This document shows positions 23,729 to 49,543 of a stretch of DNA of 64,000 nt, in pieces. Under the pieces are notes generated by a model. It had not been told where the DNA came from and did not search any database. It saw only the letters and a list, made by a program, of their open reading frames with translations. Every line of letters starts with the position of its first letter. The first letter of the stretch is position 1. Made by a program: the position numbers and the translations under genes. Origin of the DNA: an uncultured Limimonas sp. (GTDB lineage Bacteria > Pseudomonadota > Alphaproteobacteria > Kiloniellales > Rhodovibrionaceae); contig CAJXKW010000002.1 in the NCBI GenBank assembly GCA_913055855.1, positions 9,150 to 73,149 on the forward strand, in the 5' to 3' direction.

Positions 23729-23771
23729 GCCCCGTCTCCTTCGTGCTCGGCCGGTCGCGGCCCAACCCGCG

Positions 23772-24950
23772 TCAGCCCGGCCCCATATCGCGATAGCGCC
23801 GCCGATCGCGGACGACGCGCTTGAGGTAGTGTTTGGTCTCCGCATAAGGCAGATCGGCACGCAGGCGGTGATAGACCTGTTGCGGGTTCATCCGGTTGAT
23901 CTGCCGTGCCGCCGCCGAGACGTTGGTGTCCCCGGTAAACGTCTTGGCCACGTTCCCGGCCCCCGTGTTGTAGGCGGCGATGGCACAGTATTCCCGGCTT
24001 TCCCGGTCGCGCACCGGCTCCAGATAGCGCGCCATCAGGATGTGCAGATAAGCGCTGCCCAGCTCGACATTCTGCTCGGGCTCGAAGAGGTATTCGGGTG
24101 AGGGCGCCCGGTCCTTGCCCTTGACGAACTTGTAGGCATCGCGCCCGCCGGTCGCGGGCACGATCTGCATCAGTCCGAACGCGGGAATGTGGCTCTGCGC
24201 GCGCGGGTTGAAGGAACTCTCGTTCTTCATGATGGAAAGCAGCAGCGCGGTATCCACCATGTATTTGCGCGCATACGCCTTGGCCAGCGGCGCCACGCGC
24301 TCCGCCGAAAGCCGCTTGTGGTCGGGGAGCATCGGGATGGTCACGCGCCCGACCTTGTGTTGGCGCCCCTTCGAGTCCGTCACCGTCCGGGTGTCGAAAT
24401 CGGGCTCGGCATCTTTGTCGGCGAGACGGCCCAGCTCGGCCTCGCGGCTGGCCGCCTTCTGCCCGCCCCCGCTGACGGCCTTGTCGCCGGCCTCCCGCGC
24501 CTTCCGGTCGACGTAATCGCCCACCACGTCCTGCTGGTCGAGTTCCCGGGAACTCGCCCCCAGGGTTTCGTTGAGCGTGCGCTTGAGCGCGTCCCGGTCG
24601 GTTGTTTCCTGCGCCTCGACCGTGATCGTGCCGTCTTCGTAATCCACGATAACGCGCCGACCACGATCGTCGGTATAGCCGACCCAGGTGTGCTTCGACG
24701 GCATTTTCGCCGCCTCGCCCCAGCGCTTTTGCAGATCGCGCTTCATCGCCTTGAACGCCTGGTCGATGGCGCGGTCCATGGCGGCGAAGCGGGCGTCCAT
24801 CCGCGCGTCGAACGCCTCGAACTCCTTGTCGATCTCCTCGCCGAAGGATTCGAAGCTGTCGTCGTCGAGCAGGTCGGCCCGGCCCGGCCGCGCGCCCGCC
24901 GTCAGCAATGTGGCGGCAGACAGGCCGGTGAGCAGCGTCCGGCGGTTCAT
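23772..24950 (-). CDS. MltC-like lytic murein transglycosylase (DUF3393-like N-domain + SLT domain)
   Basis: LLLSIMKNESSFNPRAQSHIPAFGLMQIVPATGGRDAY...AIAAYNTGAGNV carries the SLT catalytic Glu-Ser motif. The N-terminus has an RRTLL Tat-like signal. Confidence 0.75.
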   Translation of the reverse strand: MNRRTLLTGLSAATLLTAGARPGRADLLDDDSFESFGEEIDKEFEAFDARMDARFAAMDRAIDQAFKAMKRDLQKRWGEAAKMPSKHTWVGYTDDRGRRVIVDYEDGTITVEAQETTDRDALKRTLNETLGASSRELDQQDVVGDYVDRKAREAGDKAVSGGGQKAASREAELGRLADKDAEPDFDTRTVTDSKGRQHKVGRVTIPMLPDHKRLSAERVAPLAKAYARKYMVDTALLLSIMKNESSFNPRAQSHIPAFGLMQIVPATGGRDAYKFVKGKDRAPSPEYLFEPEQNVELGSAYLHILMARYLEPVRDRESREYCAIAAYNTGAGNVAKTFTGDTNVSAAARQINRMNPQQVYHRLRADLPYAETKHYLKRVVRDRRRYRDMGPG

Positions 24951-24957
24951 GACCACC

Positions 24958-26100
24958 TCACCCGTGCTGTGCCACCGCGACTTTGGCTTGCTTGAGCACG
25001 CCCGACTGCCCGTTGGCAGCGCGCAGGACGGCCGCGTCGGCGTTGGAGATCACGATCTGGCCGTCCGAGGTGACCCGCTGAACCGCCACGACGTAGGGCT
25101 GTTTCCCCATCATGTTCAGCGACTTCGCCTGCTGGACGTTCGTCGTGTATTGCAGCGGCCCCCGCTTGAACAGCGCCGCCTTCTCGACCTTCGCGTTCTC
25201 GTAGACGACGTTACCGTTCTCGTCGCGCACCGTCGGCGACAGGCTCGGCGTGTACTGGAAGGCACCGCGCAGGTTGAGGATCACGCCCGTGGCCTTCTGC
25301 GCCTTGTCGGCGAGGTTGCCGCTCTCCGCCGAGACAGCCTGGACGTTGTCGCTGCCGCCCGAACCGGCGCCGCCGCCGGTCACGGCCCCGGTGCCGTCGC
25401 CCGGCGTCTGGCCGCCGGCGCCGCTGCCGCCGCGCTTCGAGCGGCCGTCGCTCCCGGCGTTGCCGCCCTGTGTCCCGCCATCCGTGCTGCCGCGCTCATT
25501 CTTCTGCAGCACGGGCTGCATTTGCTGGTACAGGCCGGCGCCGCCGCCGCCGTGCTGCTGACAGGCCTTGGCGAAGTTCTCCATGCACACGCGCAGGGTT
25601 ACCTTCGCCTTTGGGAAGCGCTTGCCGCTGCCGTAGCTGCCGCCCGAGACCCACTCGACGGACTTGTCGACCGTCACGGCCCCCTGAACGCTGCCCTTGG
25701 CCTTGCTCTCGATGAGCTGCTTGTTCAGGCTCGCGTCCTCGACCACGCTGCGGCTGCGGATCGCCACGCCGGAAATCAGCTTGACCAGCCGCGCCTGCGC
25801 CACGACGCGCGCGGCCTGAAGCGCCATGGCCTCGGCCTGGACCGGGTTCTCCTTGGGCTCGCTGGTGCCGATGCCCGTCGCCTGCAGAAAGCCGCGTTGC
25901 CAGTTCTCGACGGAGCGGCCCTGCTGCGTCTCGGACGTGCGGGTGAATGCGCCCTGGGATTGCGCGTGCGCCGCCGCTGGCATCACCACGGCCGCAACGG
26001 CGGCGACCAGAAGCACACGCGGCATGCCGCGGCGCTGCAGGGCCTGGCCGGCGGACTGGCCGGACGCCGGGCGGGTGCGGCGCGGGGCGTGTCGAAACAT
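24958..26100 (-). CDS. secreted LPP20/FlgP-like domain protein with a long Gly/Ser/Thr linker and an unassigned C-domain
   Basis: FLQATGIGTSEPKENPVQAEAMALQAARVVAQARLVKLISGVAIRSRSVVED follows the LPP20 pattern. An approximately 90-aa G-rich linker follows. The start ATG at 26100 has a GGAGAGG SD. Confidence 0.5.
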   Translation of the reverse strand: MFRHAPRRTRPASGQSAGQALQRRGMPRVLLVAAVAAVVMPAAAHAQSQGAFTRTSETQQGRSVENWQRGFLQATGIGTSEPKENPVQAEAMALQAARVVAQARLVKLISGVAIRSRSVVEDASLNKQLIESKAKGSVQGAVTVDKSVEWVSGGSYGSGKRFPKAKVTLRVCMENFAKACQQHGGGGAGLYQQMQPVLQKNERGSTDGGTQGGNAGSDGRSKRGGSGAGGQTPGDGTGAVTGGGAGSGGSDNVQAVSAESGNLADKAQKATGVILNLRGAFQYTPSLSPTVRDENGNVVYENAKVEKAALFKRGPLQYTTNVQQAKSLNMMGKQPYVVAVQRVTSDGQIVISNADAAVLRAANGQSGVLKQAKVAVAQHG

Positions 26101-26132
26101 GGGCAAAACCTCTCCTCTCGCTTGGCGCATCT

Positions 26133-27284
26133 TCAGGCCTGGCCGGGCGAGACCCGGCGAAGCTGGCGCAGCGCCTCGATGGCCACGCTGCCGCTGACCG
26201 GTTCGGTGGGCTTGAACGCGCCGTTGCTGTCGCTCTCCATGAGGCCGCGGCTGACAGCCGTCATGATGGCGCTGAAGCTCACGCGCGTGGACGCGACGTC
26301 CGGGAAGGGCGAGCTGTTCCCGAAGTGCTTCGTCGCCATGTCGCCGTCGGCCGTCCGCGTGCGGATGAGATCCTGGAGCACCATGGCGAAGCGCTCGCGC
26401 GTGACCTCGCGCTTGGGGCGGAAGCGTCCCTTTTCGATATCCAGGCCGCGCAGGGGCGCCCGGCTGACATGGCGGATCGCCGTGGCCTCGGGCAGATGGG
26501 CGTAGTCGCTCTCGCCCTGCGGATTGGTCTCGCCGTCACGCGGGCGATTGAAGGCCACACCGTCGAGATAGGCCGTGACCTTGAGCACCCGGTCCAGGAG
26601 CAGCGCGAGCTGGCGCCGCGTCACCGCCTCCTCGGTCGCGATCCGTTTCACCTTGGCGTCGCCCTGGACCTGGGCGCGCTCGATCCGGTCCAGGCGGGTC
26701 AGCATTTCCTGGCCCTGTGCGCTCTGCGGGCTGTCCGTCCTGGTCAGCCGACGGGCGTACGCGCGCGCCTCGCCCAGCCGCTCCGGCGTGCGCTCGGCCC
26801 GATAGGCGGCCATCGCCGTCCGCGCGATCGCCCGGAGCAGCTCCGGATCCGTTTTTGCACCCTCGACATCCGCTTCGGCGTCGGCGAAGACGTCCTTCGC
26901 CTCGGCGTACCAGTCCTCGCCCCGCTCGCTGCGCAGGAGCCGGATCTCCAGCGTCGCGAGCCGGCGCCGCTGCGCCGGCGTCGGTTCCGCATCGCGCCCC
27001 TTCGCCAGGGCCTCCCGCGCCTCGTCGTAGCGACCGGTTTCGATCCGGAGGGCGACCTGCCCGGCGTAGGCCGGGACGTGGCCCGGCGCCAGCTCGAGCG
27101 CACGCTCGAACGCCTTTTCCGCGACCAGGTAATTCCCCTTTTCGATATTCGTCATGCCCTTGGACACGTGCGACTCGGGTGTGTCCATGGGCGACTGCGG
27201 CTCCGCGGGCTCGGGGGTCGAGCCGCAGGCCGCCAGCACCAGGCTACCGGCGAGGATGGCCGCCCGGCCGAGATATCCCATCAT
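26133..27284 (-). CDS. lipoprotein with N-terminal TPRs and C-terminal SLH-like repeats
   Basis: The lipobox is LVLAAC (start ATG 27284, GGAGG SD). The TPRs read GNYLVAEKAFERALELAPGHVPAY. The SLH-like repeats read VTRRQLALLLDRVL, GRFRPKREVTRERFAMVL and FPDVASTRVSFSAIMTAVSRGLM..GAFKPTEPVSG. Confidence 0.5.
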   Translation of the reverse strand: MMGYLGRAAILAGSLVLAACGSTPEPAEPQSPMDTPESHVSKGMTNIEKGNYLVAEKAFERALELAPGHVPAYAGQVALRIETGRYDEAREALAKGRDAEPTPAQRRRLATLEIRLLRSERGEDWYAEAKDVFADAEADVEGAKTDPELLRAIARTAMAAYRAERTPERLGEARAYARRLTRTDSPQSAQGQEMLTRLDRIERAQVQGDAKVKRIATEEAVTRRQLALLLDRVLKVTAYLDGVAFNRPRDGETNPQGESDYAHLPEATAIRHVSRAPLRGLDIEKGRFRPKREVTRERFAMVLQDLIRTRTADGDMATKHFGNSSPFPDVASTRVSFSAIMTAVSRGLMESDSNGAFKPTEPVSGSVAIEALRQLRRVSPGQA

Positions 27285-27363
27285 GGATCCTCCCTCGGGT
27301 GTGCCGCGCCCTGCGGTGCCGGCCCACAACCGCATACCGGCCCGGCCGCGGCGCGGATTCCGT

Positions 27364-28704
27364 TTAGAAATCGAGACCGCCCGTGTCGCCGCCCGTATCG
27401 CCGCCGGTGCCGCCCGAGGCGCCGGCGTGTGCGCCACCGCCGGCATCCGCCAGGCGCGCTTCCAGACGCCGTTTCACCGCCGTGCGCAGTTTCTGCGCGA
27501 GCACCGCCATCTGCTTCTTGACGTAGGTTTCCTGCGTCAGGCGCGCGTCCTGGCTCGCCGGAACGAGGTCCTGCGCGTCCACCTGCTTGGTAATGCGGGC
27601 GCCGTTGACGTTCATGGTCGCGCTGCCCGCGAGCGTGGCGACCATCCGATAGTATTTGCCCGCAAGCGCCGCCTTGCCCTCGGGCAAGTCGTCGGCGCTC
27701 ACGCGTTTCTTGAACATGCCGACGTTGATGATGTTCGCGCGGACGGCGATGTCGTGCCGCTGCTCGCGATCGACCACGGAGAACGTCGAATCCGAGCCGA
27801 ACGCGGCGGCCAGCTCGTTGCGCAGCTCGGGAACCGGCCGGCCATCCGTCGCCTTTGCGGCGACCACCGCAACCGTACGGGCCAGGGGCTCACGCGGGAC
27901 GCAGACCCGGGCATCCAGCGTCATGGCCAGCACGTCCTGCCCGCGCTCGGTCACCACCTCGTTGCGCACGACCGAATATTTGACGAACCCGCGCGCCTGG
28001 GCGGAAAAGCGCGACATGAAGCGCTCTTTGACGTTGCCGTTCTTCGATGCGACGAGCGACTTGCTCGCACCCTCCACGAGGGCACCACTGCGCTGGCGCG
28101 CGGCTTCCATCATCAGCCGCCCGACCAGCTTTTCGCGCGCCTGGGCGCGGGTTTCCACCTCGGCCAGCGGCTGTTTGCCCCGGACGGTCGCCGGGAGATA
28201 CGCCGAACAGCGCGCGTCCCCTTCGAGCTTTTTGCGCTCGCCTTGATCGGTTTCGCGCCGCGCCTTCACCTCTTCCCGCTGACGCATGCGTTCCAGTCGC
28301 GCGCGCGCTTCCTCGATCGCCCGGTCGACCTGATCCGGGTCGACCTTCCCCTTAACGCGCACGCAGATCTCGCGCCCGCTCTCGTTCTCCTGGACCACGC
28401 GCATGTTCGTCAGCGCGCCGGCGACGACGGTCTCCACCACGTCGCCCTTGAGTTCAAAATCCTCGACGGCCGATACGGCGCGAACCACGGACTTGTGACT
28501 CGCCACAGCCCGTCGCTTCGCCTGGGCCAGGGCCGCTTCCCGGCCCTGCGCCGGGGTCTCGCTGTCGCCGTAGGTGTAGCACCCCTGCCCCGAGACCGGT
28601 TCCAGCGCGGCCGCGGCCGCACCGTTTGCGTTGGCGGCAAGGAGACCGCCCAGGCATGCCGCCAGGGCCGCGGTCAGCGCGCGGCGTCCGGATGCACGTG
28701 CCAT
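27364..28704 (-). CDS. exported (possible lipoprotein) multi-LPP20-like/LpoB-like protein with a Gly-rich C-terminal tail ending GGLDF
   Basis: The signal is RRALTAALAAC. Two LPP20-like stretches follow, then a VAVVAAKATDG...FSVVDRE module. The tail reads GGGAHAGASGGTGGDTGGDTGGLDF-stop. Confidence 0.4.
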   Translation of the reverse strand: MARASGRRALTAALAACLGGLLAANANGAAAAALEPVSGQGCYTYGDSETPAQGREAALAQAKRRAVASHKSVVRAVSAVEDFELKGDVVETVVAGALTNMRVVQENESGREICVRVKGKVDPDQVDRAIEEARARLERMRQREEVKARRETDQGERKKLEGDARCSAYLPATVRGKQPLAEVETRAQAREKLVGRLMMEAARQRSGALVEGASKSLVASKNGNVKERFMSRFSAQARGFVKYSVVRNEVVTERGQDVLAMTLDARVCVPREPLARTVAVVAAKATDGRPVPELRNELAAAFGSDSTFSVVDREQRHDIAVRANIINVGMFKKRVSADDLPEGKAALAGKYYRMVATLAGSATMNVNGARITKQVDAQDLVPASQDARLTQETYVKKQMAVLAQKLRTAVKRRLEARLADAGGGAHAGASGGTGGDTGGDTGGLDF

Positions 28705-28744
28705 GCTCACCCCCATGGTTCGCGCCGAGTGCGCCCGGAACCTG

Positions 28745-30142
28745 TTAGAAGTTGCTCACGTTGCTGCCCGCGCCGCTCTCGGCCGGCGAGGCGACATTGC
28801 CGGAGCCGGAGCCGGAACCGGAACCGCCGGTGTTGAAATCGCCGCTGCTTCTACGACCCTGGCGCGTGGCCTCCGCGCCACTGGCCTCCTCCGCGAGGGA
28901 CTCCAGCTCCTGCGCCATCTGCCGGCTCTCCGGCGACCAGACGTAGACGTCCGTCTGCATCGGCACGTTCGCAGCCGGATGCTGGCCCTTCCAGGTATAG
29001 GCGCGCGTGGCCCCCTTGAGCTCGATCTTCTTGGCCTTGGCGCGGATCAGCGACTTGAACTCCTGGTTGTTGAAGCTCTTGCTCGACCCGTCGGCGTAGG
29101 CGCGGAAGGTGTTGGTGCTGTCCGACATCTGCCGGCTCGCGACGTCCTCCGCGACGAACTGCGCGATCTGGCTGCGGCCGATCAGGGCTGCCTTCTGCTC
29201 GTTCACCATTGAGGACTGCGTGCGATACACCGGGGCGAAGCTGACCAGCACCTTGGTGCCGTCCGCCTTGTTCCACACGCGCACGCCCTGGCTCAGCGCG
29301 AGGAAATTGGGGTTGTTCTGCAGCTTGCGCTTGATCTTCTGAACCACCGGCTGGCCCTTGGGACCTTTCTCGATGGGCACATTCTCGTTGTAGATGCTCT
29401 CCGCCAGGGCGGCCATGCGCGGCGACCACACGATGCCCACCAGCACCGTGTAGTTCTGGTCCATGTTGTCGCCTTCCGCGTTAAATATGGGGACGGCCCC
29501 GTTGAGCAGCAGCCGGGCGCCGGAAGCGACTTTCTCCTGGTATTTCTCCTGGATCTGGACCCGCTTGCGCTGGCGCGCCTGCTTGTTGCCGCCCTTCCAG
29601 TCCGGATCGAACTTGCGGATCTGGGCGTCCAGCGCCTCGTTGGTGAGCTTCTGCATGCGCTGGACCGTGGAGACGTTGTCGCGCGCCTTCTTGAGCTGCG
29701 GCGGCACCTGATCCCCGCCCTGCTGCAGAACCTCAAACGCGCGATCGGAACGGATGACGCTGCCCACGGTGTTGGCCATCTCGCTCTTGGCCTTGAGCAG
29801 CGCCGCGTTGAACGCGGTCTGGCGCGCATTGACCCAGTTCTTGCTGCCGAAGTCCGCGCGCACCTGGGCCTTCCCGCTGGCGACAAAGAAGGTGCGCCCC
29901 TGGCCCACGTCGTTGATGCCCTCGGTGATCCCCTTCTTGCTGAGCCACGCCTGCCAAAGCCGCGTGGGCGTCTCGCGCTGGCTTTGCCGCGCGGCCTGCT
30001 CCTTGCTCTGGGTGGCGACGTCGCTCGGCTTGGGTTGGGTTACCTTTTCGCCAACCTCCTGCGCGCTGGGCGTGCCCGCCGGCACGACCGCCAGCGCGGC
30101 GATCACCACGGCGGCGCGTGCAGGTGTCCGGCTGGTCCTCAT
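28745..30142 (-). CDS. secreted LPP20-like protein with a (GS)n tail ending SGAGSNVSNF
   Basis: The signal is ARAAVVIAALAVVPAGTPSAQ (ATG 30142, AAGGGGGG SD). FFVASGKAQVRADFGSKNWVNARQTAFNAALLKAKSEMANTVGSVI is an LPP20-type pattern. The tail reads GGSGSGSGSGNVASPAESGAGSNVSNF-stop. Confidence 0.4.
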   Translation of the reverse strand: MRTSRTPARAAVVIAALAVVPAGTPSAQEVGEKVTQPKPSDVATQSKEQAARQSQRETPTRLWQAWLSKKGITEGINDVGQGRTFFVASGKAQVRADFGSKNWVNARQTAFNAALLKAKSEMANTVGSVIRSDRAFEVLQQGGDQVPPQLKKARDNVSTVQRMQKLTNEALDAQIRKFDPDWKGGNKQARQRKRVQIQEKYQEKVASGARLLLNGAVPIFNAEGDNMDQNYTVLVGIVWSPRMAALAESIYNENVPIEKGPKGQPVVQKIKRKLQNNPNFLALSQGVRVWNKADGTKVLVSFAPVYRTQSSMVNEQKAALIGRSQIAQFVAEDVASRQMSDSTNTFRAYADGSSKSFNNQEFKSLIRAKAKKIELKGATRAYTWKGQHPAANVPMQTDVYVWSPESRQMAQELESLAEEASGAEATRQGRRSSGDFNTGGSGSGSGSGNVASPAESGAGSNVSNF

Positions 30143-30197
30143 CGTGTGCCCCCCTTGTTTCGTCGCGTACATGCGCGGCCGGCAACGCGGCCGAGAC

Positions 30198-30758
30198 CTA
30201 GAAAACCGTGTTGTCCTTCTGCAGGGTCAGGGTCTCGCTGACATTGCCGATCACCTTCTCGCCCACGGCCGGCTGATCGGGGTCGTCGCTGAGAACCAGC
30301 TTCATCACCTGCACGCGTGCCTCGTAATCCGCCTGCGCGGTGCCGTCGTCCCCGTAACGCCGCGTTTCGTTCAGGAAGAAGCGCATCTTCAGGTGCGGAT
30401 TGGGCATGTTGCGCGTGAACGCGACCTTATCGGTGGTGTAGAACGCTTCCTGAAAGCCGCGATAGGCCTGCGCCATATTGATGTCGTCGTAGGTGGTGTT
30501 GTTTCGGACCCGAACGAGTCCCGCATTCGGTGTCTGGTCCAGCTTGCCGCGCATATTTGAAACGGCCTTGATGAAAAAGTTCTCGCCGCGCAGCTTGTTT
30601 GCCAAATCATTCGAGAGCTGACGGAGTTGCGGTCCGGTAATCTGGAGTCCCACTGGCTCAGCCGACTTGTCCGGATCCATGACTTTCGTCTTGCCACCAC
30701 AACCCGCAACGCTCACGGCAAGTACCATGCCCAGCAACGCTTTGAGCCAAACTCGCAT
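30198..30758 (-). CDS. LpoB-like (COG3417) lipoprotein
   Basis: MRVWLKALLGMVLAVSVAGC is the lipobox. LVRVRNNTTYDDINMAQAYRGFQEAFYTTDKVAFT parallels the LpoB core (VDSVNNRTNGSLN...). The protein ends in NTVF. Confidence 0.45.
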   Translation of the reverse strand: MRVWLKALLGMVLAVSVAGCGGKTKVMDPDKSAEPVGLQITGPQLRQLSNDLANKLRGENFFIKAVSNMRGKLDQTPNAGLVRVRNNTTYDDINMAQAYRGFQEAFYTTDKVAFTRNMPNPHLKMRFFLNETRRYGDDGTAQADYEARVQVMKLVLSDDPDQPAVGEKVIGNVSETLTLQKDNTVF

Positions 30759-30814
30759 CCGTTTGCATCTCCTCCATGTTTTCAATTCAGCCCGGCGCCT
30801 CGCCGCCCCCCAGG

Positions 30815-31246
30815 CTAGCGCTCGGCACGAACCTGAAGGACGACCTGGCGTCCGCCCGGCGACGGCGCGGCAAGCTTGATGTTTTCCACCTCACCGGAAT
30901 CCAGGAACAGCTTTTGCCATGCGCCCGGATCGCCGACCTGGAATCCGTCCCCGTCCTTCCAGGTTGCCTGATAGCGAAGAACCCGCTTGGCATTGGTGAC
31001 GTTGCGCAGGCTGACGTTCGCCTGCATCAAGCCCTCGAACTTGCGCGACGCCGCACGCTCCACCCGGAGATCGCCGCGTAGCGAGGTGGGGGAATAGCGC
31101 ACCTGAACATTCGGGTCCTTGGCCGCCGGCCCGGTGGTAACGGGGTCGCCCGGCTGGGCGCACCCCGCAACAATGCCCGCAAGGGCGAGGCCGGCACCAA
31201 TTCGGCCGAAGCGGCGCGTCCGCTTTTCCGAATCCATCCGGTTCAC
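30815..31246 (-). CDS. YcfL-like (DUF1425) lipoprotein
   Basis: The lipobox is LAGIVAGC. LMQANVSLRNVTNAKRVLRYQATWKDGDGFQV matches the DUF1425 N-x-[ST]...Y-[RQ]-x-x-W-x-D-x-x-G pattern. The GTG start overlaps the upstream stop (GTGA); an alternative ATG is at 31237. Confidence 0.55.
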   Translation of the reverse strand: MNRMDSEKRTRRFGRIGAGLALAGIVAGCAQPGDPVTTGPAAKDPNVQVRYSPTSLRGDLRVERAASRKFEGLMQANVSLRNVTNAKRVLRYQATWKDGDGFQVGDPGAWQKLFLDSGEVENIKLAAPSPGGRQVVLQVRAER

Positions 31247-33120
31247 GTCGTCTCGTCCTCCGTCGTCTGTCGCTTCACCGTCTGCGCCCCGCCGGCACCA
31301 TCAGCCGGCTCGGACGCCTGAACCTCAAGATGGTCGCGGATCCCGCGACCGTAGACGAAGACCGGCCCATTCCCGCGAAGCCGCACCGTTTCTGTCGCGA
31401 GCGTGGTGCCGTCGGCGTTGTAACTTGCCAGTTCCAGGGTGCGCATGTTTTCCGGCACGCGCAACCGTGCCACGCCCACGGTATGCGGCAGCGTAACCCA
31501 GGACTCGGTTCCGGGCTCGGTGAGTTCGCTGACGGCGATTCCTGTCGCCAACCCCGCGACATCGCCCAACAAGCCGCCGCCGGCGGCCTTGCGCGCCTGG
31601 ACCTGGGCCATGTAGTTGCCCACCGCGCTCAGCGCCGCTTTCGTCATGTGGATAGGGAACTTGTCGTTGAAGTGGCTGAGCGCCATGGCCTCGACGTCGG
31701 CGAGCGGGGTCACGCGCGCCAGGGATTCGCCGTCCGCGCCGTGGATGCGAACACGGTCGATGGTCCGCTCCACGGGTTTGTAGAACGGGATCTGGAGCGG
31801 CACGAAATTGCGCAGACCGGTGGGCAGGATCAGCTTCGCCACGCGCCGCTCCGGCGCCCGCCCGACGTCCAGGACGACGTGAACCAGACGACCGTCGCGC
31901 TCACCCGCCGGCCGCTTGTCATCCAGCGCGTCGATGGCCGCCTGCACGGTCGCGTTGTCCGGACGCAGATCCTGCGCGTCCTGGTACGCCTTGCGCGCCT
32001 TATTCCACTCCTTGTCGGAAACCCGAGTCTTGCCATTTGCGGCCGCAAGTTCCGCCCTGCGCTCGGACCACACCGCGGAGAGGAAATCGCCCAGCGGGTT
32101 CACGTACGGCGTCGGCACCCGGTCCGCCGCGTCATCGCAGACAACGCAGGCCTCTTGTTCGAATTTGTTCTTGAACGTGCTGGTTAGCTTGGAGAACGCC
32201 TCTTCTTGTTGCCCGGAGAGGTTCTTGTTCTGCTTGTTCTCGAACTTGTCCTGGGCCTCCGCGATTTCGCGGCCATAGGCAGCCTGCATGCTGCTCTGCC
32301 AGGCACGCGCGAGTTTGATGTTGTTGCGCACGCCGTCGTCGCCGTTGAGGATTCCGGCCATGGCCTTGTAATCGATGGCCATGATCGCCTCGAAACCCGT
32401 TGCGGCATAGGCGTCCGTAACGGTGTTGATGATCTGATCGTCCACCGACTTGTTCTGCTTGGCCTTGCGCAGATCCGTCACGGCGTGGTCGAAGAATTTC
32501 CGCGCGCAGTCCAGGTTGCCGGCGGCCAAGTGGACACTCCCGCGCTCCAGGAGGCCGAGCGTGCCAAGGCCATCCGCGAGCTCGCGCGGCTTGTCGATCT
32601 TGGTCGCGCCCTGGGCCGCGCTTGCCGCCAGGTACTTCCCGGCGTCGGCCACCGCGCCCTCGTCGAGCTTGTCCAACAGGGGCGCAACGTCCGCCGTGTA
32701 GTCCGAACGGCCCGAGCGGAACGCGGCGTACTTCAGGCTCAGCGCGACCATCTGGACCAGATTCACCTGATCCCCGGCCATCGCCCGCTTCCACGGGTTG
32801 CCCGTCACCTGCGCCTCAATCTGCTCGGTGATGTCCGAATATTCGCCGAACGCACTGTCCAGCTCCAGTGCCCTTTCACGCGCGTCTGCCACATCAAGGT
32901 CGCTCGACATCGGGAACCCCGTGTCCTTCGCCAGCGGCGTGACCGTGCAGCGATGGAGCTTGCTCGCGTCCTCGGGCAGCTTGACCGGTTTCGTCACGCC
33001 CGGTCCTTCTCTCGGCGGCGGCGGTTCCAAACTTCCGGTCGTACACCCGGCGAGGATGAGCGCACCGACGGCGCCCGACACGGCGGTCGCAATCCGCCGC
33101 GTGTGTCTCTGGTCCGACAT
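31243..33120 (-). CDS. large helical/TPR-like lipoprotein (COG3014-like), 625 aa
   Basis: The lipobox is ALILAGC after ATG 33120. The body is helical and Ala/Lys/Asp-rich, with a beta-rich C-terminus. It sits upstream of the YcfL-like and LpoB-like genes, as in the conserved lipoprotein trio. Confidence 0.4.
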   Translation of the reverse strand: MSDQRHTRRIATAVSGAVGALILAGCTTGSLEPPPPREGPGVTKPVKLPEDASKLHRCTVTPLAKDTGFPMSSDLDVADARERALELDSAFGEYSDITEQIEAQVTGNPWKRAMAGDQVNLVQMVALSLKYAAFRSGRSDYTADVAPLLDKLDEGAVADAGKYLAASAAQGATKIDKPRELADGLGTLGLLERGSVHLAAGNLDCARKFFDHAVTDLRKAKQNKSVDDQIINTVTDAYAATGFEAIMAIDYKAMAGILNGDDGVRNNIKLARAWQSSMQAAYGREIAEAQDKFENKQNKNLSGQQEEAFSKLTSTFKNKFEQEACVVCDDAADRVPTPYVNPLGDFLSAVWSERRAELAAANGKTRVSDKEWNKARKAYQDAQDLRPDNATVQAAIDALDDKRPAGERDGRLVHVVLDVGRAPERRVAKLILPTGLRNFVPLQIPFYKPVERTIDRVRIHGADGESLARVTPLADVEAMALSHFNDKFPIHMTKAALSAVGNYMAQVQARKAAGGGLLGDVAGLATGIAVSELTEPGTESWVTLPHTVGVARLRVPENMRTLELASYNADGTTLATETVRLRGNGPVFVYGRGIRDHLEVQASEPADGAGGAQTVKRQTTEDETT

Positions 33121-33131
33121 GTCACCCCCCG

Positions 33132-33137
33132 ATTATA
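33132..33137 (-). promoter_or_regulatory. possible -10 hexamer (TATAAT) in an AT-rich 225-bp gap
   Basis: The reverse strand reads CAGTATAATCGGGGGGTGACATG. A perfect TATAAT lies 11 nt upstream of the 33120 ATG. That is too close for a normal leader plus SD, so it is doubtful. Confidence 0.2.
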
Positions 33138-33345
33138 CTGACACCCCGGGTGCCCACGCCGGCCGCCCGTGGCGGCGCACGGCGCAGCGCGTTATCCCCA
33201 ACCCATCACCCCGAACATCGGGAGGTTACCCCAAAATTTCTGGGAGGTTCAAGGCGAAACTACAATTTGCGTCTGTTTCATCGAGAAGGCGATATATACG
33301 TTTTGACCCGCCCACAACGCGGGCCACCAAAACCCGGCCGTCTAC

Positions 33346-34212
33346 CTAATCATCGCTTCGGAGGACATCGCCACGCTCGATGGGTGCACTCTGTTCAACA
33401 ATTTTCGCAACACTGTACTTCGGATTCACTTGGGTAACCTTCACTGTCCCTTTGCGAAGACCACCCTCAATGGTTTCACTCGTATCGACGCCCTCCAGCT
33501 TCAGGCCCGTTCCATACACGTCGAAGACCTGGCCCTCGGACAGCGAATCCCCGCCGTAATTGAGAAACGCAAAGCCTTGCTTGGTTTTCAACACCGTGAT
33601 CGGGAACACGTTGTTCAGAAATCCGCTCACCAATTTGTCCGCGGCCTTGCGGGTCACCTTGCTCAGCAACGAGATATCGGGCCGGCCGCCCGGCTGCGTG
33701 ACGAGCTTCGGATCGGTGGAGATCTCTTCGGTGACCTGATCGTGGAAGGCGATCCGGTCGTTGGCCACTTTCAGAACCTGTGTTTCGATCGTCACCCGTG
33801 CGATATCGATGCGCCGATACCGGTCCACATTCGGAGCGGCATCTTCGTCACGCCGAAACTTCAGGTCGTGCAGTGAAATCGACATGATATACTGCACGGG
33901 CTTGCTGGGCTCGAACGAAACGTTGCCCGCCTCGCGAAAAGGCGAACTCTTGAGTTTTTGCTCGCTCGCCGTCTGGGCCCGGATGTCCCCGCGGCGCGAA
34001 TAAAGCTCGAACTTCCGGCTGCTGCGCAGGGCGCCCTCGAAGGGGCCGACGATGAGCGACGGCTCGATCCGTTCGCGGTCGCGATGGGGCACCGTATCGC
34101 TGATCAGAATCGGCGACTGCACGGCCACGCGCACTTTCTCCGCAAGGGCCGCACCGCCGGCTGCGCCCATAATCACCACGACGGCCAGTAAACCCGCTGC
34201 TATCCGCCGCAT
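33346..34212 (-). CDS. secreted CsgG/FlgO/LpoB-superfamily protein with a C-terminal small beta-barrel (FlgT_C-like)
   Basis: The start ATG at 34212 has an AGGAGGA SD. The signal is AAGLLAVVVIMGAAGGAALA. The core reads KVRVAVQSPIL...LIVGPFEGALRSSRKFELYSRR. The C-terminus reads GDSLSEGQVFDVY...GTVKVTQVNPKYSVAKIV...IERGDVLR. Confidence 0.4.
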   Translation of the reverse strand: MRRIAAGLLAVVVIMGAAGGAALAEKVRVAVQSPILISDTVPHRDRERIEPSLIVGPFEGALRSSRKFELYSRRGDIRAQTASEQKLKSSPFREAGNVSFEPSKPVQYIMSISLHDLKFRRDEDAAPNVDRYRRIDIARVTIETQVLKVANDRIAFHDQVTEEISTDPKLVTQPGGRPDISLLSKVTRKAADKLVSGFLNNVFPITVLKTKQGFAFLNYGGDSLSEGQVFDVYGTGLKLEGVDTSETIEGGLRKGTVKVTQVNPKYSVAKIVEQSAPIERGDVLRSDD

Positions 34213-34282
34213 CCGCGTCCTCCTGCCCATGCCGTTTCGTCGGGGCGGGCCACCGCAGCGCACCGCCCCCCTCTTCGCTGCT

Positions 34283-34438
34283 TTAGAAATCCGTGAGATT
34301 GCTGCCGGCACCGCTGTCGCCCGCCGGGCTACCCGTGCCGGCGCAACGCGTCGGATCGACCGAACGCGCCGCCGCGCCATTGCCGGCCGCGAGCGCGATC
34401 ACCACACCTGTCACGAATATCCCGACCCGGCGCCGCAC
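34283..34438 (-). CDS. small secreted peptide precursor (about 51 aa) ending SGAGSNLTDF
   Basis: A putative GTG start at 34438 gives VRRRVGIFVTGVVIALAAGNGAAA (signal-like) + RSVDPTRCAGTGSPAGDSGAGSNLTDF. The last 11 codons, including the stop, match the 3' end of the 28745 gene at 24 of 33 nt, and eight of the ten tail residues are conserved. Confidence 0.5.
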   Translation of the reverse strand: MRRRVGIFVTGVVIALAAGNGAAARSVDPTRCAGTGSPAGDSGAGSNLTDF

Positions 34439-34551: not shown

Positions 34552-34968
34552 CTAACCCCCGACGATCACCTTGCTCTGCGAGGGCGAGACAATGGTGCCC
34601 GCCGGCACGTTGGCGCTGCTGCCGTTGTGCTTGGTCGGACAGGTCTGGTGCACGGCCGCCTGCCCCTCGACCTTCACCTTGCTGCTGCCCTTGCTGATGC
34701 TCACCGGGCCCTTGATCATGTTCGACACCACGCCGCCGCCGGCCGTGCCCGCTTCATCGCCGGTGGACATCGTGATTTGCGTGCTCTTGGTCACCACGCC
34801 CTGGTTCAGCACCTTCACGCGCTTGGACAGGGTGCCGGGATTGGCCTGCATCAGCATCGTGGTGTTCGGATAGGGCATGGGCGTGGGCCCCGCCGGCGTG
34901 GGGGTCTTGCAGGTATCCGGCCCGCTGGCGACGGCGTTGCCGCCCTGCTTCGTCGATATGGGAAACAC
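34552..34968 (-). CDS. DUF4150 PAAR-like protein (T6SS spike tip), stand-alone 138 aa
   Basis: DTCKTPTPAGPTPMPYPNTTMLMQANPGTLSKRVKVLNQGVV...STGDEAGTAGGGVVSN...VKVEGQAAVHQTCPTKHNG is the DUF4150 signature. Confidence 0.8.
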   Translation of the reverse strand: MFPISTKQGGNAVASGPDTCKTPTPAGPTPMPYPNTTMLMQANPGTLSKRVKVLNQGVVTKSTQITMSTGDEAGTAGGGVVSNMIKGPVSISKGSSKVKVEGQAAVHQTCPTKHNGSSANVPAGTIVSPSQSKVIVGG

Positions 34969-34986
34969 GTGCGTCTCCTCCCCGCG

Positions 34987-35769
34987 TCAGCCCAGGCGGA
35001 TCTGCTCGCCGTCCAGCTTCGCCTCGCCCTTGGCGCGAAGATCCAGCTTGTCCGCGCCCAGATCGCAGGTCTCGTCCACGACCACCCGCATGCGCCCGGC
35101 GTCCTGGCGGTACAGGCCGCTCGCCCGGCGGAAGACACTGCCCGCGCGCTCGACGATGCGACCGGCGCTAACCTCCAGGCGGGACGAAGCCTGGCGCACC
35201 CGCCGGATCGTCGCGGTGAGCGCGTCGGCCCGGACGATCGCCGCGGTCACCGCGAACAGCGCCGAGCGCGCGCGCAGGGTCAGGCGATCCGTCTCCAGAT
35301 GGGCGCTCGCCGTGCTCTCGAAGCGCAGGTTCCGGCCCGCGCGCAGGGCGATGTCCCCGTCCGGCGCCGCGAGCGCCAGGTTCGCCACCGCCCCGGGGCT
35401 CAGGACAAGCTCACCCGTCGCCGGGTCATAGGCGACCACGAGCCCGCGGTCCGGATCGCGGAGCACCAGCCGGCCGCCCTCTTCCTCAGGCCCCGCGGCG
35501 GCGCGCGCGCCCGCTTCCGCGCCGGCGTGGTCGAGCACGCCGATGACATAGGCGCCACCGGCGCCGTCGTCCGCAAGGAGCACCCGGCTCCCGACGGCGC
35601 AGCGGCCGGCCTGCGCCAGGGCGTGCTGCGCCGGCCGGACCGAGCGGCCCGGCGCACCCGCCGGGCGCACGCGATACCCGCCGTCCGCCGTCACCGCCAC
35701 GACCTCCGCCGGCCGGAACGGTGCCGCCGGCTGCGTTGGCGCCGACGCCCGTTCGAGGGTTTCCACCAT
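34987..35769 (-). CDS. DUF3540-like protein
   Basis: This is a 260-aa Ala/Arg-rich beta protein. It occupies the position between the pentapeptide proteins and the PAAR-like gene that DUF3540 holds in vgrG-DUF2169 modules. The call is mainly by context. Confidence 0.45.
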   Translation of the reverse strand: MVETLERASAPTQPAAPFRPAEVVAVTADGGYRVRPAGAPGRSVRPAQHALAQAGRCAVGSRVLLADDGAGGAYVIGVLDHAGAEAGARAAAGPEEEGGRLVLRDPDRGLVVAYDPATGELVLSPGAVANLALAAPDGDIALRAGRNLRFESTASAHLETDRLTLRARSALFAVTAAIVRADALTATIRRVRQASSRLEVSAGRIVERAGSVFRRASGLYRQDAGRMRVVVDETCDLGADKLDLRAKGEAKLDGEQIRLG

Positions 35770-35806
35770 GGCGTCTCTCCCCTTCCCTGTCTGGTGTCAT
35801 GGCGCC

Positions 35807-37810: not shown

Positions 37811-37814
37811 TGCC

Positions 37815-40328: not shown

Positions 40329-40362
40329 GGGCGCGGCCCTCGTCTCGCCGGCGCGTTCGGCG

Positions 40363-49392: not shown

Positions 49393-49520
49393 CCCGGCGC
49401 GGTTGCGCCCCGGCTGCGGCGTCGCACACACCTTCCCGCACCTCCGGCGCCGCGACCACCCGCGGAATCGGAAAAGCCGGCCACGGCGTAGCCGCCGCGA
49501 CCGGCCCATCACTGTTCCCC

Positions 49521-49543
49521 GCCGGCGCGCTTGCAACGCCGGC
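49521..49543. terminator. GC-rich hairpin between the convergent vgrG and rplQ genes
   Basis: GCCGGCG-cgcttgcaa-CGCCGGC forms a perfect 7-bp stem. There is no U-tract on either strand, so terminator function is uncertain. Confidence 0.3.

What the first reader, a model, noticed from the sequence alone, without database searches (positions are those of the whole stretch)
27364..34438. Shared Gly-rich C-terminal tail ending in Phe on three proteins of the cluster
Three otherwise dissimilar ORFs end with a flexible Gly/Ser/Asp stretch followed by a short polar motif and a terminal Phe.
- The 28745 gene ends ...GGSGSGSGSGNVASPAESGAGSNVSNF-stop.
- The 34283 peptide ends ...GTGSPAGDSGAGSNLTDF-stop.
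- The 27364 gene ends ...GGTGGDTGGDTGGLDF-stop.

The first two share SGAGSN-[VL]-[ST]-[ND]-F. Their last 33 nt are identical at 24 positions, and eight of the ten tail residues are conserved. That argues for selection on the peptide.

The LpoB-like gene ends ...DNTVF, which is a weaker match. There is no downstream TM helix, so this is unlike PEP-CTERM, GlyGly-CTERM or LPXTG sorting tags.

A free C-terminal aromatic residue is the kind of ligand read by PDZ domains or by beta-augmentation sites. It could be a docking, sorting or secretion tag for the CsgG-like component.

The (GS)4 tract is encoded by (GGAGCC)2(GGAACC)2 at 28802-28825, a short tandem repeat that could vary in length.
Basis: seen in the sequence. 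Interest (0 to 1): 0.75.

Follow-up and report, generated by a model that had tools for sequence, protein, structure and literature searches.

The report
Conserved C-terminal docking tail, DUF6844 proteins
A floppy Gly/Ser-rich stretch ending in a short acidic/polar tip with a terminal phenylalanine is a strongly conserved and apparently undescribed hallmark of a widespread family of periplasmic proteins (DUF6844), and it most likely works as a tethered latch that clips onto the protein's own fold rather than as a secretion tag.

Summary
In detail: three minus-strand ORFs (28745-30172, 27364-28716, 34283-34438) end in a Gly-rich stretch plus [DN]-F.

- **475-aa protein.** It belongs to DUF6844, with 882 clusters at 50% identity. 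Of 128 full-length representatives, 108 end in F/Y/W. The tip reads G-x3-[DN]-x-[DS]-[DA]-[FYW]-COOH and follows a variable 9-55 aa linker.
- **Docking evidence.** AlphaFold2 on two subfamilies only 25% identical left the linker disordered and placed the tip confidently (pLDDT 81-89) as a short strand plus a C-terminal turn. Tail position -1 co-varies with core residue 301 in the conserved beta-hairpin (A with I/V/L, D with T/R, N with N). Seven of 17 changes fall on the same tree branch.
- **450-aa protein.** Its family is confined to Rhodovibrio relatives and has its own conserved tip, G-L-D-F or G-L-N-H.
- **51-aa ORF.** It is a signal peptide fused to a diverged copy of the DUF6844 linker and tip. 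It was found only in this genome.
- **LpoB-like protein.** Its terminal Phe is not conserved.
- **Distant DUF6844 loci.** Neighbouring proteins also tend to end in acidic plus aromatic or hydrophobic residues (19/101 vs 1/94).

My best reading is a tethered beta-augmentation latch for assembling a periplasmic scaffold. A CsgG-type secretion tag is not supported. I found no description of the motif in the literature I could search.

The parts
28745..30172 (-). DUF6844-family periplasmic protein. The ORF is 475 aa; the likely start is M11 at 30142, giving 465 aa. It has a Sec signal peptide and no lipobox Cys.
   Evidence: Homologues carry precomputed PF20891. The profile search found 882 family clusters. 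The fold matches PDB 4QVR, FTT_1539c (E 4.9e-12, E 1.2e-41). Local hmmscan of this protein itself gave no Pfam hit.
28784..28858 (-). Disordered Gly/Ser-rich linker of the DUF6844 protein, residues 439-463 (GRRSSGDFNTGGSGSGSGSGNVASP). It includes the 6-nt tandem repeat at 28799-28826.
   Evidence: AF2 pLDDT is below 50 for residues 439-459. The linker varies in length and sequence among homologues. TRF.
28748..28783 (-). Conserved C-terminal tip of DUF6844, residues 464-475 (AESGAGSNVSNF-COOH).
   Evidence: G467 and S470 are invariant and F475 nearly so. Family logo G(-8), D/N(-4), D/S(-2), D/A(-1), F/Y/W(0), with 108/128 ending aromatic. AF2 pLDDT is 81-83, with a strand at 465-466 and a turn at 472-474.
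29225..29287 (-). Conserved beta-hairpin of the DUF6844 core, residues 296-316 (GVRVWNKADGTKVLVSFAPVY). This is the proposed docking site for the tip.
   Evidence: Strands 296-301 and 307-316 in the AF2 model. Residue 301 is the top co-varying partner of tail position -1 (z 7.3), and residue 308 co-varies with tail position -8. Seven of 17 changes are co-located on the tree. The docking itself is inferred; model coordinates could not be inspected.
27364..28716 (-). 450-aa exported protein of a small family restricted to Rhodovibrio relatives. Its linker is at 27382-27447 (DAGGGAHAGASGGTGGDTGGDT) and its tip GGLDF at 27367-27381.
   Evidence: Only 6 homologues were found among 5.8 billion proteins. 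G447 and L448 are invariant, and the end is LDF or LNH. There are no Pfam or PDB sequence hits. A 12-nt repeat lies at 27377-27414.
34283..34438 (-). Candidate 51-aa 'tail-only' gene. It has a GTG start preceded by AAAGGGG, a signal-peptide-like N-terminus at 34367-34438 (VRRRVGIFVTGVVIALAAGNGAAA), a predicted mature 27-mer at 34286-34366, and the tip SGAGSNLTDF at 34286-34315.
   Evidence: Sequence. Its 3' ~90 nt are homologous to the DUF6844 3' end: score 24 against shuffles of 11.4 +/- 1.5, with homology ending at the stop codon. It is the only non-DUF6844 ORF matching the tip regex. It is absent from R. salinarum. Expression is unproven, and the GC3 of 0.77 is only a weak coding signal.
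33346..34230 (-). Protein with a CsgG/LpoB-like fold and a TsaP-like C-terminal domain (294 aa). It has a signal peptide but is not a lipoprotein, and it is the conserved partner of DUF6844 across phyla. Here it ends ...RSDD, with no aromatic tip.
   Evidence: BLASTP E 1e-12 to L049 6679-7974, which has Pfam CsgG, LpoB and LPP20 hits and ends RDDDW. The C-terminal domain hits TsaP 6VE2_O at E 2e-6. The window protein has no Pfam hit.
30198..30785 (-). LpoB-like lipoprotein ending DNTVF. It is not part of the tail phenomenon.
   Evidence: Weak TIGR02722 hit. The C-termini in five loci are DNTVF, DKTVF, DKAVLW, DKSVL and RMVRGG, and there is no Gly-rich linker.
23772..33120 (-). The other genes co-oriented with the two tail-bearing genes in this span: a 625-aa lipoprotein with weak TPR hits (31243-33120), a DUF1425/YcfL-like lipoprotein (30815-31246), a TPR+SLH lipoprotein (26133 to about 27284), a 390-aa protein (24958-26130) and an MltC-like lytic transglycosylase (23772-24956). 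None carries the tail.
   Evidence: Pfam and NCBIfam. Synteny in R. salinarum and three metagenome contigs. The TPR+SLH and 390-aa genes are present only in loci whose 450-aa homologue ends LDF (window, L009; L010 shows the start of the TPR gene). They are absent where it ends LNH (L003, L011).

Best explanation
The Gly/Ser-rich stretch plus terminal [DN]-F is a two-part module. A disordered tether of variable length carries a conserved tip of about 10-12 residues, G-x3-[DN]-x-[DST]-[DAN]-[FYW]-COOH. The module is a family-wide hallmark of DUF6844 periplasmic proteins.

**Proposed mechanism.** The tip docks onto the conserved beta-hairpin (residues 296-316) at the sheet of a DUF6844 core. A short strand pairs with the sheet, and the terminal aromatic residue and carboxylate tuck in as a turn. 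The tether would allow docking in cis, as a cap or autoinhibitory pseudo-ligand, or in trans, on a neighbouring subunit. I infer that it works as a latch in the assembly of a periplasmic, peptidoglycan-associated scaffold. The cluster encodes CsgG/LpoB/TsaP-like, DUF1425, LpoB-like, TPR-SLH and lytic-transglycosylase proteins.

**Other tails.**
- The 51-aa ORF is a signal peptide fused to a diverged copy of the DUF6844 linker and tip. If expressed, it would release a free tip that could occupy the same site.
- The 450-aa protein has its own conserved tip of the same style, G-L-[DN]-[FH]. Its receptor is unknown.

**Shown.** Conservation of the tips, the disordered linker, the confident modelling of the tip, and the tail-core covariation.

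**Inferred.** Physical docking, cis versus trans, the role in assembly, and any function of the peptide.
For: - **Conservation.** The tip is kept down to 24-28% identity and across phyla, in Rhodovibrio, a Spirochaetia MAG and marine and rumen metagenomes. 108 of 128 full-length representatives end in F/Y/W, against a 3% Phe background.
- **Linker.** It varies from 9 to 55 aa and is S/G/P/T-rich.
- **Structure prediction.** In two independent AF2 runs on members 25% identical, the linker had pLDDT 41-54 and the tip 81-89, with DSSP strand and turn.
- **Covariation.** Tail position -1 against core residue 301 is the strongest of 4,392 tail-core pairs (z 7.3). The pairings are physically sensible: A with I/V/L, D with T/R/K, N with N. 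Seven of 17 inferred changes fall on the same branch, where about 1 would be expected.
- **Peptide.** Its tip is a specific copy of the DUF6844 tip.
- **Neighbours.** Acidic plus aromatic or hydrophobic ends are enriched in same-strand neighbours of DUF6844 in distant loci: 19/101 against 1/94, Fisher p 2e-5.
- **Cluster content.** The proteins resemble ring or scaffold proteins: TsaP-like, FlgT_N in L014, and SLT and SLH domains.
Against: - I could not inspect model coordinates, so the docking site rests on DSSP, pLDDT and covariation only.
- AF2 and the covariation analysis draw on the same co-evolution signal, so they are not fully independent.
- The covariation test uses a UPGMA tree and 148 sequences.
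- No multimer prediction was possible, so cis versus trans, and binding of the peptide or of the 450-aa tail, are untested.
- The neighbour enrichment is not phylogenetically independent, and it rests on my own greedy ORF calls.
- The peptide was found in one genome only and has a weak coding signal.
- About 16% of family representatives (20/128) do not end in an aromatic residue.
- I could not read the last 15 residues of the only solved family member, 4QVR.
Confidence: 0.55

Rival explanations
1. The tail is a sorting or secretion tag. An outer-membrane export machine, either the CsgG-like component or another one, reads it and takes the tagged proteins to the cell surface or into vesicles.
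For: - Several different protein families in DUF6844 clusters carry similar ends.
- A CsgG/LpoB-like protein is the commonest neighbour of DUF6844.
- The Francisella family member FTT_1539c is found in OMV and capsule-like fractions and is immunoreactive.
Against: - The window's CsgG-like protein has no lipobox and no Pfam CsgG hit. Its C-terminal domain resembles the periplasmic ring protein TsaP.
- In some lineages that protein itself carries the same kind of tip, which would be odd for a receptor.
- In the marine L006-L008 loci and the rumen loci, DUF6844 keeps the tail although I found no recognisable CsgG-like gene beside it.
- AF2 and the covariation place the partner site on the DUF6844 core.
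Confidence: 0.12
2. The free aromatic C-terminus is a ligand for a separate C-terminus-binding module. Candidates are a PDZ protease (of the DegS, DegP or Prc type) or one of the TPR proteins of the cluster, using a carboxylate clamp as for EEVD or PTS1 peptides.
For: - The terminal Phe plus carboxylate is the classical PDZ ligand, and TPR proteins are encoded nearby: the TPR+SLH lipoprotein and the 625-aa lipoprotein here, and a TPR protein next to DUF6844 in L006.
- Among the five loci with readable downstream context, the 450-aa family ends LDF where the TPR+SLH gene is present (window, L009, L010) and LNH where it is absent (L003, L011).
Against: - Positions -1 to -4 are acidic or polar, unlike the Y-x-F that activates DegS.
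- AF2 models the last residues as a turn and positions about -10 to -7 as the strand, which is unlike PDZ binding.
- DUF6844 keeps its tip in R. salinarum and L011, which lack the TPR+SLH gene.
- The LDF/TPR association rests on five loci in two clades.
Confidence: 0.15
3. The acidic tip binds divalent cations and bridges the protein to LPS, the outer membrane or peptidoglycan, with the terminal aromatic residue acting as a membrane anchor.
For: - Many family tips are D/E-rich, for example GDDDAF, GDEDAF and ADADAF.
- The Spirochaetia partner protein ends in D-rich repeats, DGDGDGLPDYLNRD, that look calcium-binding.
Against: - The window's own tips (SNVSNF, SNLTDF, GGLDF) have one acidic residue or none. 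They are nonetheless conserved within the Rhodovibrio clade.
- Covariation with a specific core residue argues for a protein contact.
Confidence: 0.08
4. The resemblance is a compositional coincidence of a GC-rich genome, in which Gly/Ala/Ser-rich ends are common.
For: - The genome is about 70% GC.
- Other proteins in the window also end in Phe.
- The LpoB-like Phe is indeed not conserved.
Against: - The tip is conserved in low-GC organisms as well, at 38-45% GC.
- 108 of 128 family members end aromatic.
- The DNA and protein motif searches gave no unrelated hits.
Confidence: 0.02

Closest known systems
DUF6844 (Pfam PF20891); solved member FTT_1539c of Francisella tularensis (PDB 4QVR)
   Same: The 475-aa protein is a member by sequence profile and by fold. 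FTT_1539c is known only as an immunoreactive hypothetical envelope protein.
   Different: In the hits I obtained, the Pfam model matched about 97 residues in the middle of the protein and not the tail. I found no description of the C-terminal motif in the searchable literature. I could not determine whether FTT_1539c itself carries the tip.
SSB C-terminal tip (disordered Gly/Gln/Pro-rich linker plus acidic D-D-D-I-P-F-COOH); from my own knowledge
   Same: The architecture is the same: a flexible, low-complexity linker followed by an acidic tip ending in Phe with a free carboxylate. The SSB tip docks on partner proteins and on SSB's own core. Many DUF6844 tips read G-D-D-D-A-F.
   Different: The proteins are unrelated and sit in different compartments (cytoplasm versus periplasm). 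There is no sequence homology. This is an analogy of mechanism only, and it was not tested here.
Donor-strand complementation or beta-augmentation in chaperone-usher pili and other periplasmic assemblies; from my own knowledge
   Same: A terminal peptide of one subunit is predicted to add a strand to the sheet of a core. The terminal aromatic residue and carboxylate matter in PapD-type recognition.
   Different: Here the donor is a C-terminal tip on a long disordered tether. There is no chaperone or usher gene. Whether complementation is in cis or in trans is unknown.
C-terminal beta-signal of outer-membrane beta-barrel proteins, and the Y-x-F ligand of the DegS PDZ domain; from my own knowledge
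   Same: A terminal aromatic residue, usually Phe, in an exported protein.
   Different: The tail lacks the alternating hydrophobic pattern and has no Tyr at -2. The AF2 model of the protein is an alpha/beta fold and not a barrel.
PEP-CTERM, GlyGly-CTERM and LPXTG sorting signals
   Same: A C-terminal tag shared by several proteins of a locus, preceded by low-complexity sequence.
   Different: Those signals have a TM helix and a basic cluster after the motif. Here each protein ends at the aromatic residue.
Type I secretion C-terminal motif of the protease and lipase substrates (acidic residue followed by hydrophobic residues at the extreme C-terminus); from my own knowledge
   Same: The +1 neighbour family in the rumen loci ends DEDLVL, DEDIVL, DEEMML or NEDLML, and the 450-aa tail has Gly/Asp repeats.
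   Different: All these proteins start with N-terminal Sec-type signal peptides. No ABC, MFP or TolC genes lie in the clusters. The GGDT repeats are not RTX nonapeptides.

Membership tests
DUF6844 (PF20891) | Significant match to the family profile | tested here: met
   Close and distant homologues carry PF20891. The profile of the window protein's family retrieves 882 clusters and the solved member 4QVR at E 1.2e-41. Direct hmmscan of the window protein gave no hit at E <= 0.1, so membership rests on transitive homology.
DUF6844 (PF20891) | Same fold as the solved member FTT_1539c | tested here: met
   Foldseek of the AF2 model against PDB gave 4QVR as the only significant hit, with E 4.9e-12 and a TM-score of 0.64 normalised to the target.
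PEP-CTERM / GlyGly-CTERM / LPXTG sorting signals | Motif followed by a hydrophobic TM helix and a basic cluster at the C-terminus | tested here: not met
   All three ORFs stop directly after Phe.
Outer-membrane beta-barrel C-terminal beta-signal | Terminal aromatic residue | tested here: met
   F/Y/W in 108 of 128 family members.
Outer-membrane beta-barrel C-terminal beta-signal | Alternating hydrophobic residues in the last strand of a beta-barrel protein | tested here: not met
   Positions -1 to -4 are D/A, D/S, D/E/P and D/N. The AF2 model is an alpha/beta fold with long helices.
DegS-type PDZ ligand (Y-x-F-COOH) | Tyr at -2 and Phe at the C-terminus | tested here: not met
   Position -2 is D, S or T in the family and S, T or L in the window tails.
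CsgG curli-type secretion channel (for the 33346-34230 protein, the proposed receptor) | Match to Pfam CsgG (PF03783) | tested here: inconclusive
   The window protein has no hit at E <= 0.1. Its homologue L049 6679-7974 (BLASTP E 1e-12) hits CsgG at 3.6e-11, and also hits LpoB and LPP20.
CsgG curli-type secretion channel (for the 33346-34230 protein, the proposed receptor) | Outer-membrane lipoprotein (lipobox Cys) | tested here: not met
   The N-terminus is MGRRTRMRRIAAGLLAVVVIMGAAGGAALAEK, with no Cys.
CsgG curli-type secretion channel (for the 33346-34230 protein, the proposed receptor) | Transmembrane hairpins that form an oligomeric barrel | not tested
   No structure prediction was run for this protein.
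Type I secretion substrates | No N-terminal signal peptide, and ABC/MFP/OMP genes nearby | tested here: not met
   The N-termini look like Sec signal peptides. The cluster genes give no such Pfam hits.

The most novel reading that the evidence does not exclude
Acidic or polar tips ending in an aromatic residue, carried on disordered tethers, are a previously unrecognised assembly code of a widespread periplasmic scaffold built from DUF6844 proteins and proteins with CsgG/LpoB/TsaP-like folds. Several unrelated components use such tips to plug into one another. This genome has additionally evolved a secreted 'tail-only' mimic, a 27-residue mature peptide, that regulates or caps the assembly by competing for the docking site.
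Probability: 0.2. Interest if true: 0.7.

Novelty: new variant of a known kind. Interest (0 to 1): 0.55.

Why it matters
DUF6844 is a large family with no known function. It comprises 882 clusters at 50% identity and occurs in Alphaproteobacteria, Francisella, spirochaetes and many gut, rumen and marine bacteria. Its only studied member is an immunodominant Francisella antigen.

A near-universal C-terminal tip with a candidate docking site gives a first concrete, testable handle on the family. Tail deletion, an F-to-A mutation and peptide competition are all direct experiments. The same handle applies to the poorly understood lipoprotein clusters it sits in, which include DUF1425 and LpoB-like genes of the kind found in the Campylobacter Cj0089-91 operon and its Helicobacter relatives. 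The motif is also a highly specific sequence signature that could improve annotation.

If the tail-only peptide is real, it would be a natural competitor peptide for a periplasmic protein-protein interface.

Tried and rejected
**Searches that gave little**
- The genome-contig scan with alignment A1 found only 2 loci.
- The third homologue search, with the diverse alignment A4, returned only one new protein because of the candidate cap.
A narrower subfamily alignment worked.
- The look-up of the window's own protein P0001 found nothing on record, so I could not see whether the 51-aa ORF was ever called as a gene.
- Two padded queries failed to reveal the last 15 residues of 4QVR.
- Literature searches for DUF6844, FTT_1539c, LPP20/CsgG/LpoB, Cj0089/HP1457 and 'C-terminal phenylalanine' found nothing on the motif.
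- No sigma-70-like promoter was found upstream of the peptide ORF. That scan is uninformative for this organism.
- Model coordinates are not exposed, so the docking site could not be read directly.

**Ideas considered and rejected**
- *The LpoB-like DNTVF is part of the tag.* Rejected because the Phe is not conserved.
- *The 450-aa protein is the equivalent of the 'LPP20+CsgG' partner seen in marine loci.* Rejected by hhalign (probability 1.5%). The true equivalent is the 33346-34230 protein.
- *The cluster is linked to the adjacent T6SS island.* Rejected because in R. salinarum the cluster lies next to siderophore and MatE genes.
- *The tail is a type I secretion signal.* Rejected because the proteins have Sec-type signal peptides and there are no transporter genes.
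- *The peptide ORF is a simple leftover of a gene's 3' end.* This is less likely, because homology stops exactly at the stop codon and the ORF has its own Shine-Dalgarno-like site and signal-peptide-like N-terminus. It is not excluded.

Full report
**1. What is there**

The window is about 70% GC. The region at 28-34 kb is lower, at 0.62-0.67.

Between 23772 and 34438, ten co-oriented minus-strand ORFs form a cluster:
- a 51-aa ORF (34283-34438);
- a CsgG/LpoB-like protein (33346-34230);
- a 625-aa lipoprotein with weak TPR hits;
- a DUF1425/YcfL-like lipoprotein;
- an LpoB-like lipoprotein;
- a 475-aa protein (28745-30172);
- a 450-aa protein (27364-28716);
- a TPR+SLH lipoprotein;
- a 390-aa protein;
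- an MltC-like lytic transglycosylase.

The 6-nt repeat encoding (GS)4 is confirmed, and a 12-nt repeat encodes the GGDT repeats of the 450-aa tail.

**2. The 475-aa protein and its tail**

Its few close homologues come from Rhodovibrio salinarum, a Rhodovibrio MAG and metagenomes. They carry Pfam DUF6844.

In an alignment reaching down to 28% identity, the linker is unalignable. The last ten residues, however, are among the best conserved in the protein: [SE]-G-[AV]-[GS]-S-[ND]-[PV]-x-[ND]-[FY]. A Spirochaetia homologue at 24% identity ends ...MDASDF.

An exhaustive profile search found 882 family clusters at 50% identity. Among the best 150, 128 are full length. Of these, 108 end in F (89), Y (15) or W (4), and 11 more end in L. 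Phe makes up 3.1% of residues in these proteins. The logo is G(-8), D/N(-4), D/S(-2), D/A(-1), aromatic(0), with typical ends GDDDAF, GDEDAF, SDPDDF and SNPTDF.

The linker between the last helix and the tip is 9-55 aa long (median 21) and is enriched in S, G, P and T.

The tail is therefore neither a coincidence of a GC-rich genome nor a peculiarity of this locus. It is a hallmark of the family.

**3. Where the tip goes**

AlphaFold2 with a 40-sequence alignment gave a confident alpha/beta core (mean pLDDT 76.6, pTM 0.70). The linker was disordered (residues 439-459 below 50). The tip was confident again, at 81-83 for residues 461-475, with a DSSP strand at 465-466 and a turn at 472-474.

A second run used a member only 25% identical (P0137, ending GDEDAF). 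It reproduced the pattern: linker about 48-54, tip 89, strand at 468-471 and turn at 477-479.

I could not read the coordinates, so I tested for contacts by covariation on 148 sequences with the tails right-aligned. Of 12 x 366 tail-core pairs, the strongest links tail position -1 to window residue 301 (z 7.3). That residue ends strand 296-301 of the most conserved hairpin, GVRVWNKADGTKVLVSFA. The pairings are Ala with Ile/Val/Leu, Asp with Thr/Arg/Lys, and Asn with Asn; the window protein is N/N. The second-ranked pair links tail position -8 to residue 308, in the next strand.

On a UPGMA tree with Fitch parsimony, each trait changed 17 times. Seven of those changes fell on the same branch, where about one would be expected.

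AF2 and covariation share their underlying signal. Even so, they agree that the tip contacts this hairpin of a DUF6844 core. Whether it is the protein's own core or a neighbour's cannot be told from a monomer model.

**4. The fold and what is known about it**

The only structural relative in the PDB is 4QVR, the hypothetical protein FTT_1539c of Francisella tularensis (Foldseek E 4.9e-12; profile E 1.2e-41).

In the literature this protein appears only as an immunoreactive hypothetical protein found in vesicle and capsule-like fractions, and as a 'DUF6844 domain-containing protein'.

In the hits I obtained, the Pfam model matched about 97 central residues, not the tail. I found no mention of the C-terminal motif.

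**5. The 450-aa protein**

Only six homologues exist among 5.8 billion proteins, all Rhodovibrio-like.

Its linker is variable, but G447 and L448 are invariant. In the eight-sequence alignment the end is L-D-F in four sequences (two of them near-identical, P0013 and the L010 gene) and L-N-H in four.

This is a conserved tip of the same general style, but it is a different motif from the DUF6844 tip.

Downstream context is readable in five loci. The three LDF loci (window, L009, L010) carry the TPR+SLH gene downstream. The two LNH loci (R. salinarum L003 and L011) go straight to the transglycosylase. This is an interesting association, but it rests on five loci in two clades.

**6. The 51-aa ORF**

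With a GTG start at 34438, seven bases after AAAGGGG, it reads VRRRVGIFVTGVVIALAAGNGAAA | RSVDPTRCAGTGSPAGDSGAGSNLTDF. That is a plausible Sec signal peptide followed by a 27-mer.

Its last ~90 nt align with the last ~90 nt of the DUF6844 gene. The score is 24, against 11.4 +/- 1.5 (maximum 17) for shuffles, and the homology ends at the stop codon. Within SGAGSN there are three synonymous differences, and the three amino-acid changes in the tip are conservative.

It matches the family logo at G(-8), N(-4), D(-1) and F(0). It is the only ORF outside DUF6844 that matches the tip pattern among 31,904 segments.

It is absent from R. salinarum and from the other loci. The one other contig reaching this position (L010) begins with an Illumina adapter, followed by ...PDLTDLRAR at a comparable distance upstream of the CsgG-like start. 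That is too little to judge.

GC3 is 0.77, a weak coding signal. I put the chance that it is a real gene at roughly one half. If it is real, it is a 'tail-only' paralogue.

**7. The LpoB-like Phe**

The ends are DNTVF, DKTVF, DKAVLW, DKSVL and RMVRGG in five loci, and there is no linker. This protein is not part of the phenomenon.

**8. Wider context**

A metagenome scan with a DUF6844 subfamily gave 54 loci from rumen, gut and marine samples, at 38-69% GC.

Using my own ORF calls, same-strand neighbours within four genes end in acidic plus aromatic or hydrophobic residues in 19 of 101 dereplicated cases. The figure for other ORFs is 1 of 94 (Fisher p 2e-5). The cases are not phylogenetically independent.

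Examples:
- The upstream partner ends RLEDDF, RLEDDY, RDDDW or RDSDW.
- Paralogues in the marine loci end KLSDAF, KLANAF or QLANKF.
- The downstream ~220-aa family in the rumen loci ends DEDLVL, DEDIVL, DEEMML or NEDLML.

The upstream partner has Pfam CsgG, LpoB and LPP20 hits. It is homologous to the window's 33346-34230 protein (BLASTP E 1e-12). In Rhodovibrio that protein lacks the aromatic end, ending RSDD, RRTR or RQADR.

The window protein has no lipobox and no Pfam CsgG hit. Its C-terminal domain matches TsaP, the protein that forms a ring around the PilQ secretin (6VE2, E 2e-6). In L014 the upstream neighbour has FlgT_N.

Together with the SLH, TPR and SLT domains, this points to a periplasmic, wall-associated scaffold and not to a curli-type secretion channel. 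That reading of the whole cluster is an inference.

**9. Mechanism and rivals**

My best reading, at confidence 0.55, is a tethered latch. The disordered linker lets the tip reach the conserved hairpin of a DUF6844 core. The tip binds there by beta-augmentation, with the aromatic end and the carboxylate tucked in. This would either cap the sheet edge in cis or link subunits in trans.

The architecture is that of the SSB C-terminal tip (linker plus DDDIPF) and recalls donor-strand complementation. Both comparisons come from my own knowledge and are analogies, not homology.

The rivals are:
- an export tag (0.12);
- a ligand for a separate PDZ or TPR module (0.15);
- a cation-bridging acidic anchor (0.08);
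- coincidence (0.02).

The CsgG-receptor idea is weakened on three counts. The candidate receptor lacks the defining features of CsgG. In some lineages it carries such a tip itself. And DUF6844 keeps the tail where I found no such gene beside it.

**10. Verdict**

The motif is a strongly conserved and apparently undescribed feature of a large family of unknown function, and it now has a testable docking model. It is a new variant of a known kind of device, not a new category.

Noticed in passing
window 34552-43143 (-): A T6SS spike and accessory gene set lies directly upstream of the cluster on the same strand: VgrG-like (Phage_GPD), DUF2169 plus pentapeptide repeats, a 687-aa pentapeptide-repeat protein, DUF3540 and a Tox-PAAR-like protein. 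The adjacency is not conserved. In R. salinarum the cluster sits next to NRPS/siderophore and MatE genes.
   Followed up: partly
window 15325-21180 (-) and 21107-23860 (-): A 1951-aa ORF with no Pfam hit and a 917-aa protein with C-terminal TPRs follow the transglycosylase on the same strand. They are absent from the R. salinarum locus. It is not known whether they belong to the cluster.
   Followed up: no
window 44094-47843 (-) and 47689-49536 (-): Two further large ORFs (1249 aa and 615 aa) have no Pfam hit at E <= 0.001.
   Followed up: no
window 28000-34000: The core of the cluster has lower GC (0.62-0.67) than the flanks (0.70-0.76). GC3 of the LpoB-like, DUF1425 and peptide ORFs is 0.76-0.78, against 0.84-0.91 for the larger cluster genes measured. 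This could mean horizontal acquisition.
   Followed up: no
window 27367-27381; L003 12689-12700; L011 6109-6120: The 450-aa family ends in either L-D-F or L-N-H. D/N and F/H switch together, and F to H needs two nucleotide changes. In the five loci with readable context, LDF goes with the presence of the TPR+SLH gene downstream and LNH with its absence. The 390-aa gene is also visible downstream in the window and L009.
   Followed up: partly
L010 1-135: This ENA metagenome contig begins with an Illumina adapter sequence (GTGACTGGAGTTCAGACGTGTGCTCTTCCGATCT). The following bases read ...PDLTDLRAR at about the position where the window has ...SNLTDF-stop. This could be a decayed or truncated relative of the peptide gene.
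   Followed up: partly
window 33346-34230 (-): The C-terminal ~80 residues of the 'CsgG-like' protein match TsaP, the LysM protein that rings the type IV pilus secretin (6VE2_O at E 2e-6; 3JC8 at E 0.5). Nothing else in the cluster resembles pilus genes.
   Followed up: partly
window 30198-33120 (-): The triad of a TPR-like lipoprotein, a DUF1425 lipoprotein and an LpoB-like lipoprotein recalls the Campylobacter Cj0089-Cj0090-Cj0091 operon and Helicobacter HP0018/HP1457. HP0018 loss causes hypervesiculation, and HP0018 co-purifies with MltD and AmiA (PMC11394524). I could not test the homology by sequence.
   Followed up: partly
L052 10561-12234; L050 3890-5563; L059 3480-5168: In the marine DUF6844 loci a protein with a caspase (Peptidase_C14) domain and an FGE-sulfatase domain lies two or three genes downstream.
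   Followed up: no
L002 11214-12686: In the Spirochaetia MAG, the partner protein next to the DUF6844 homologue ends in Asp-rich repeats (DGDGDGLPDYLNRD ... DQDGLPDYLNRD) where other lineages have an aromatic tip. The repeats resemble thrombospondin type 3 calcium-binding repeats.
   Followed up: no
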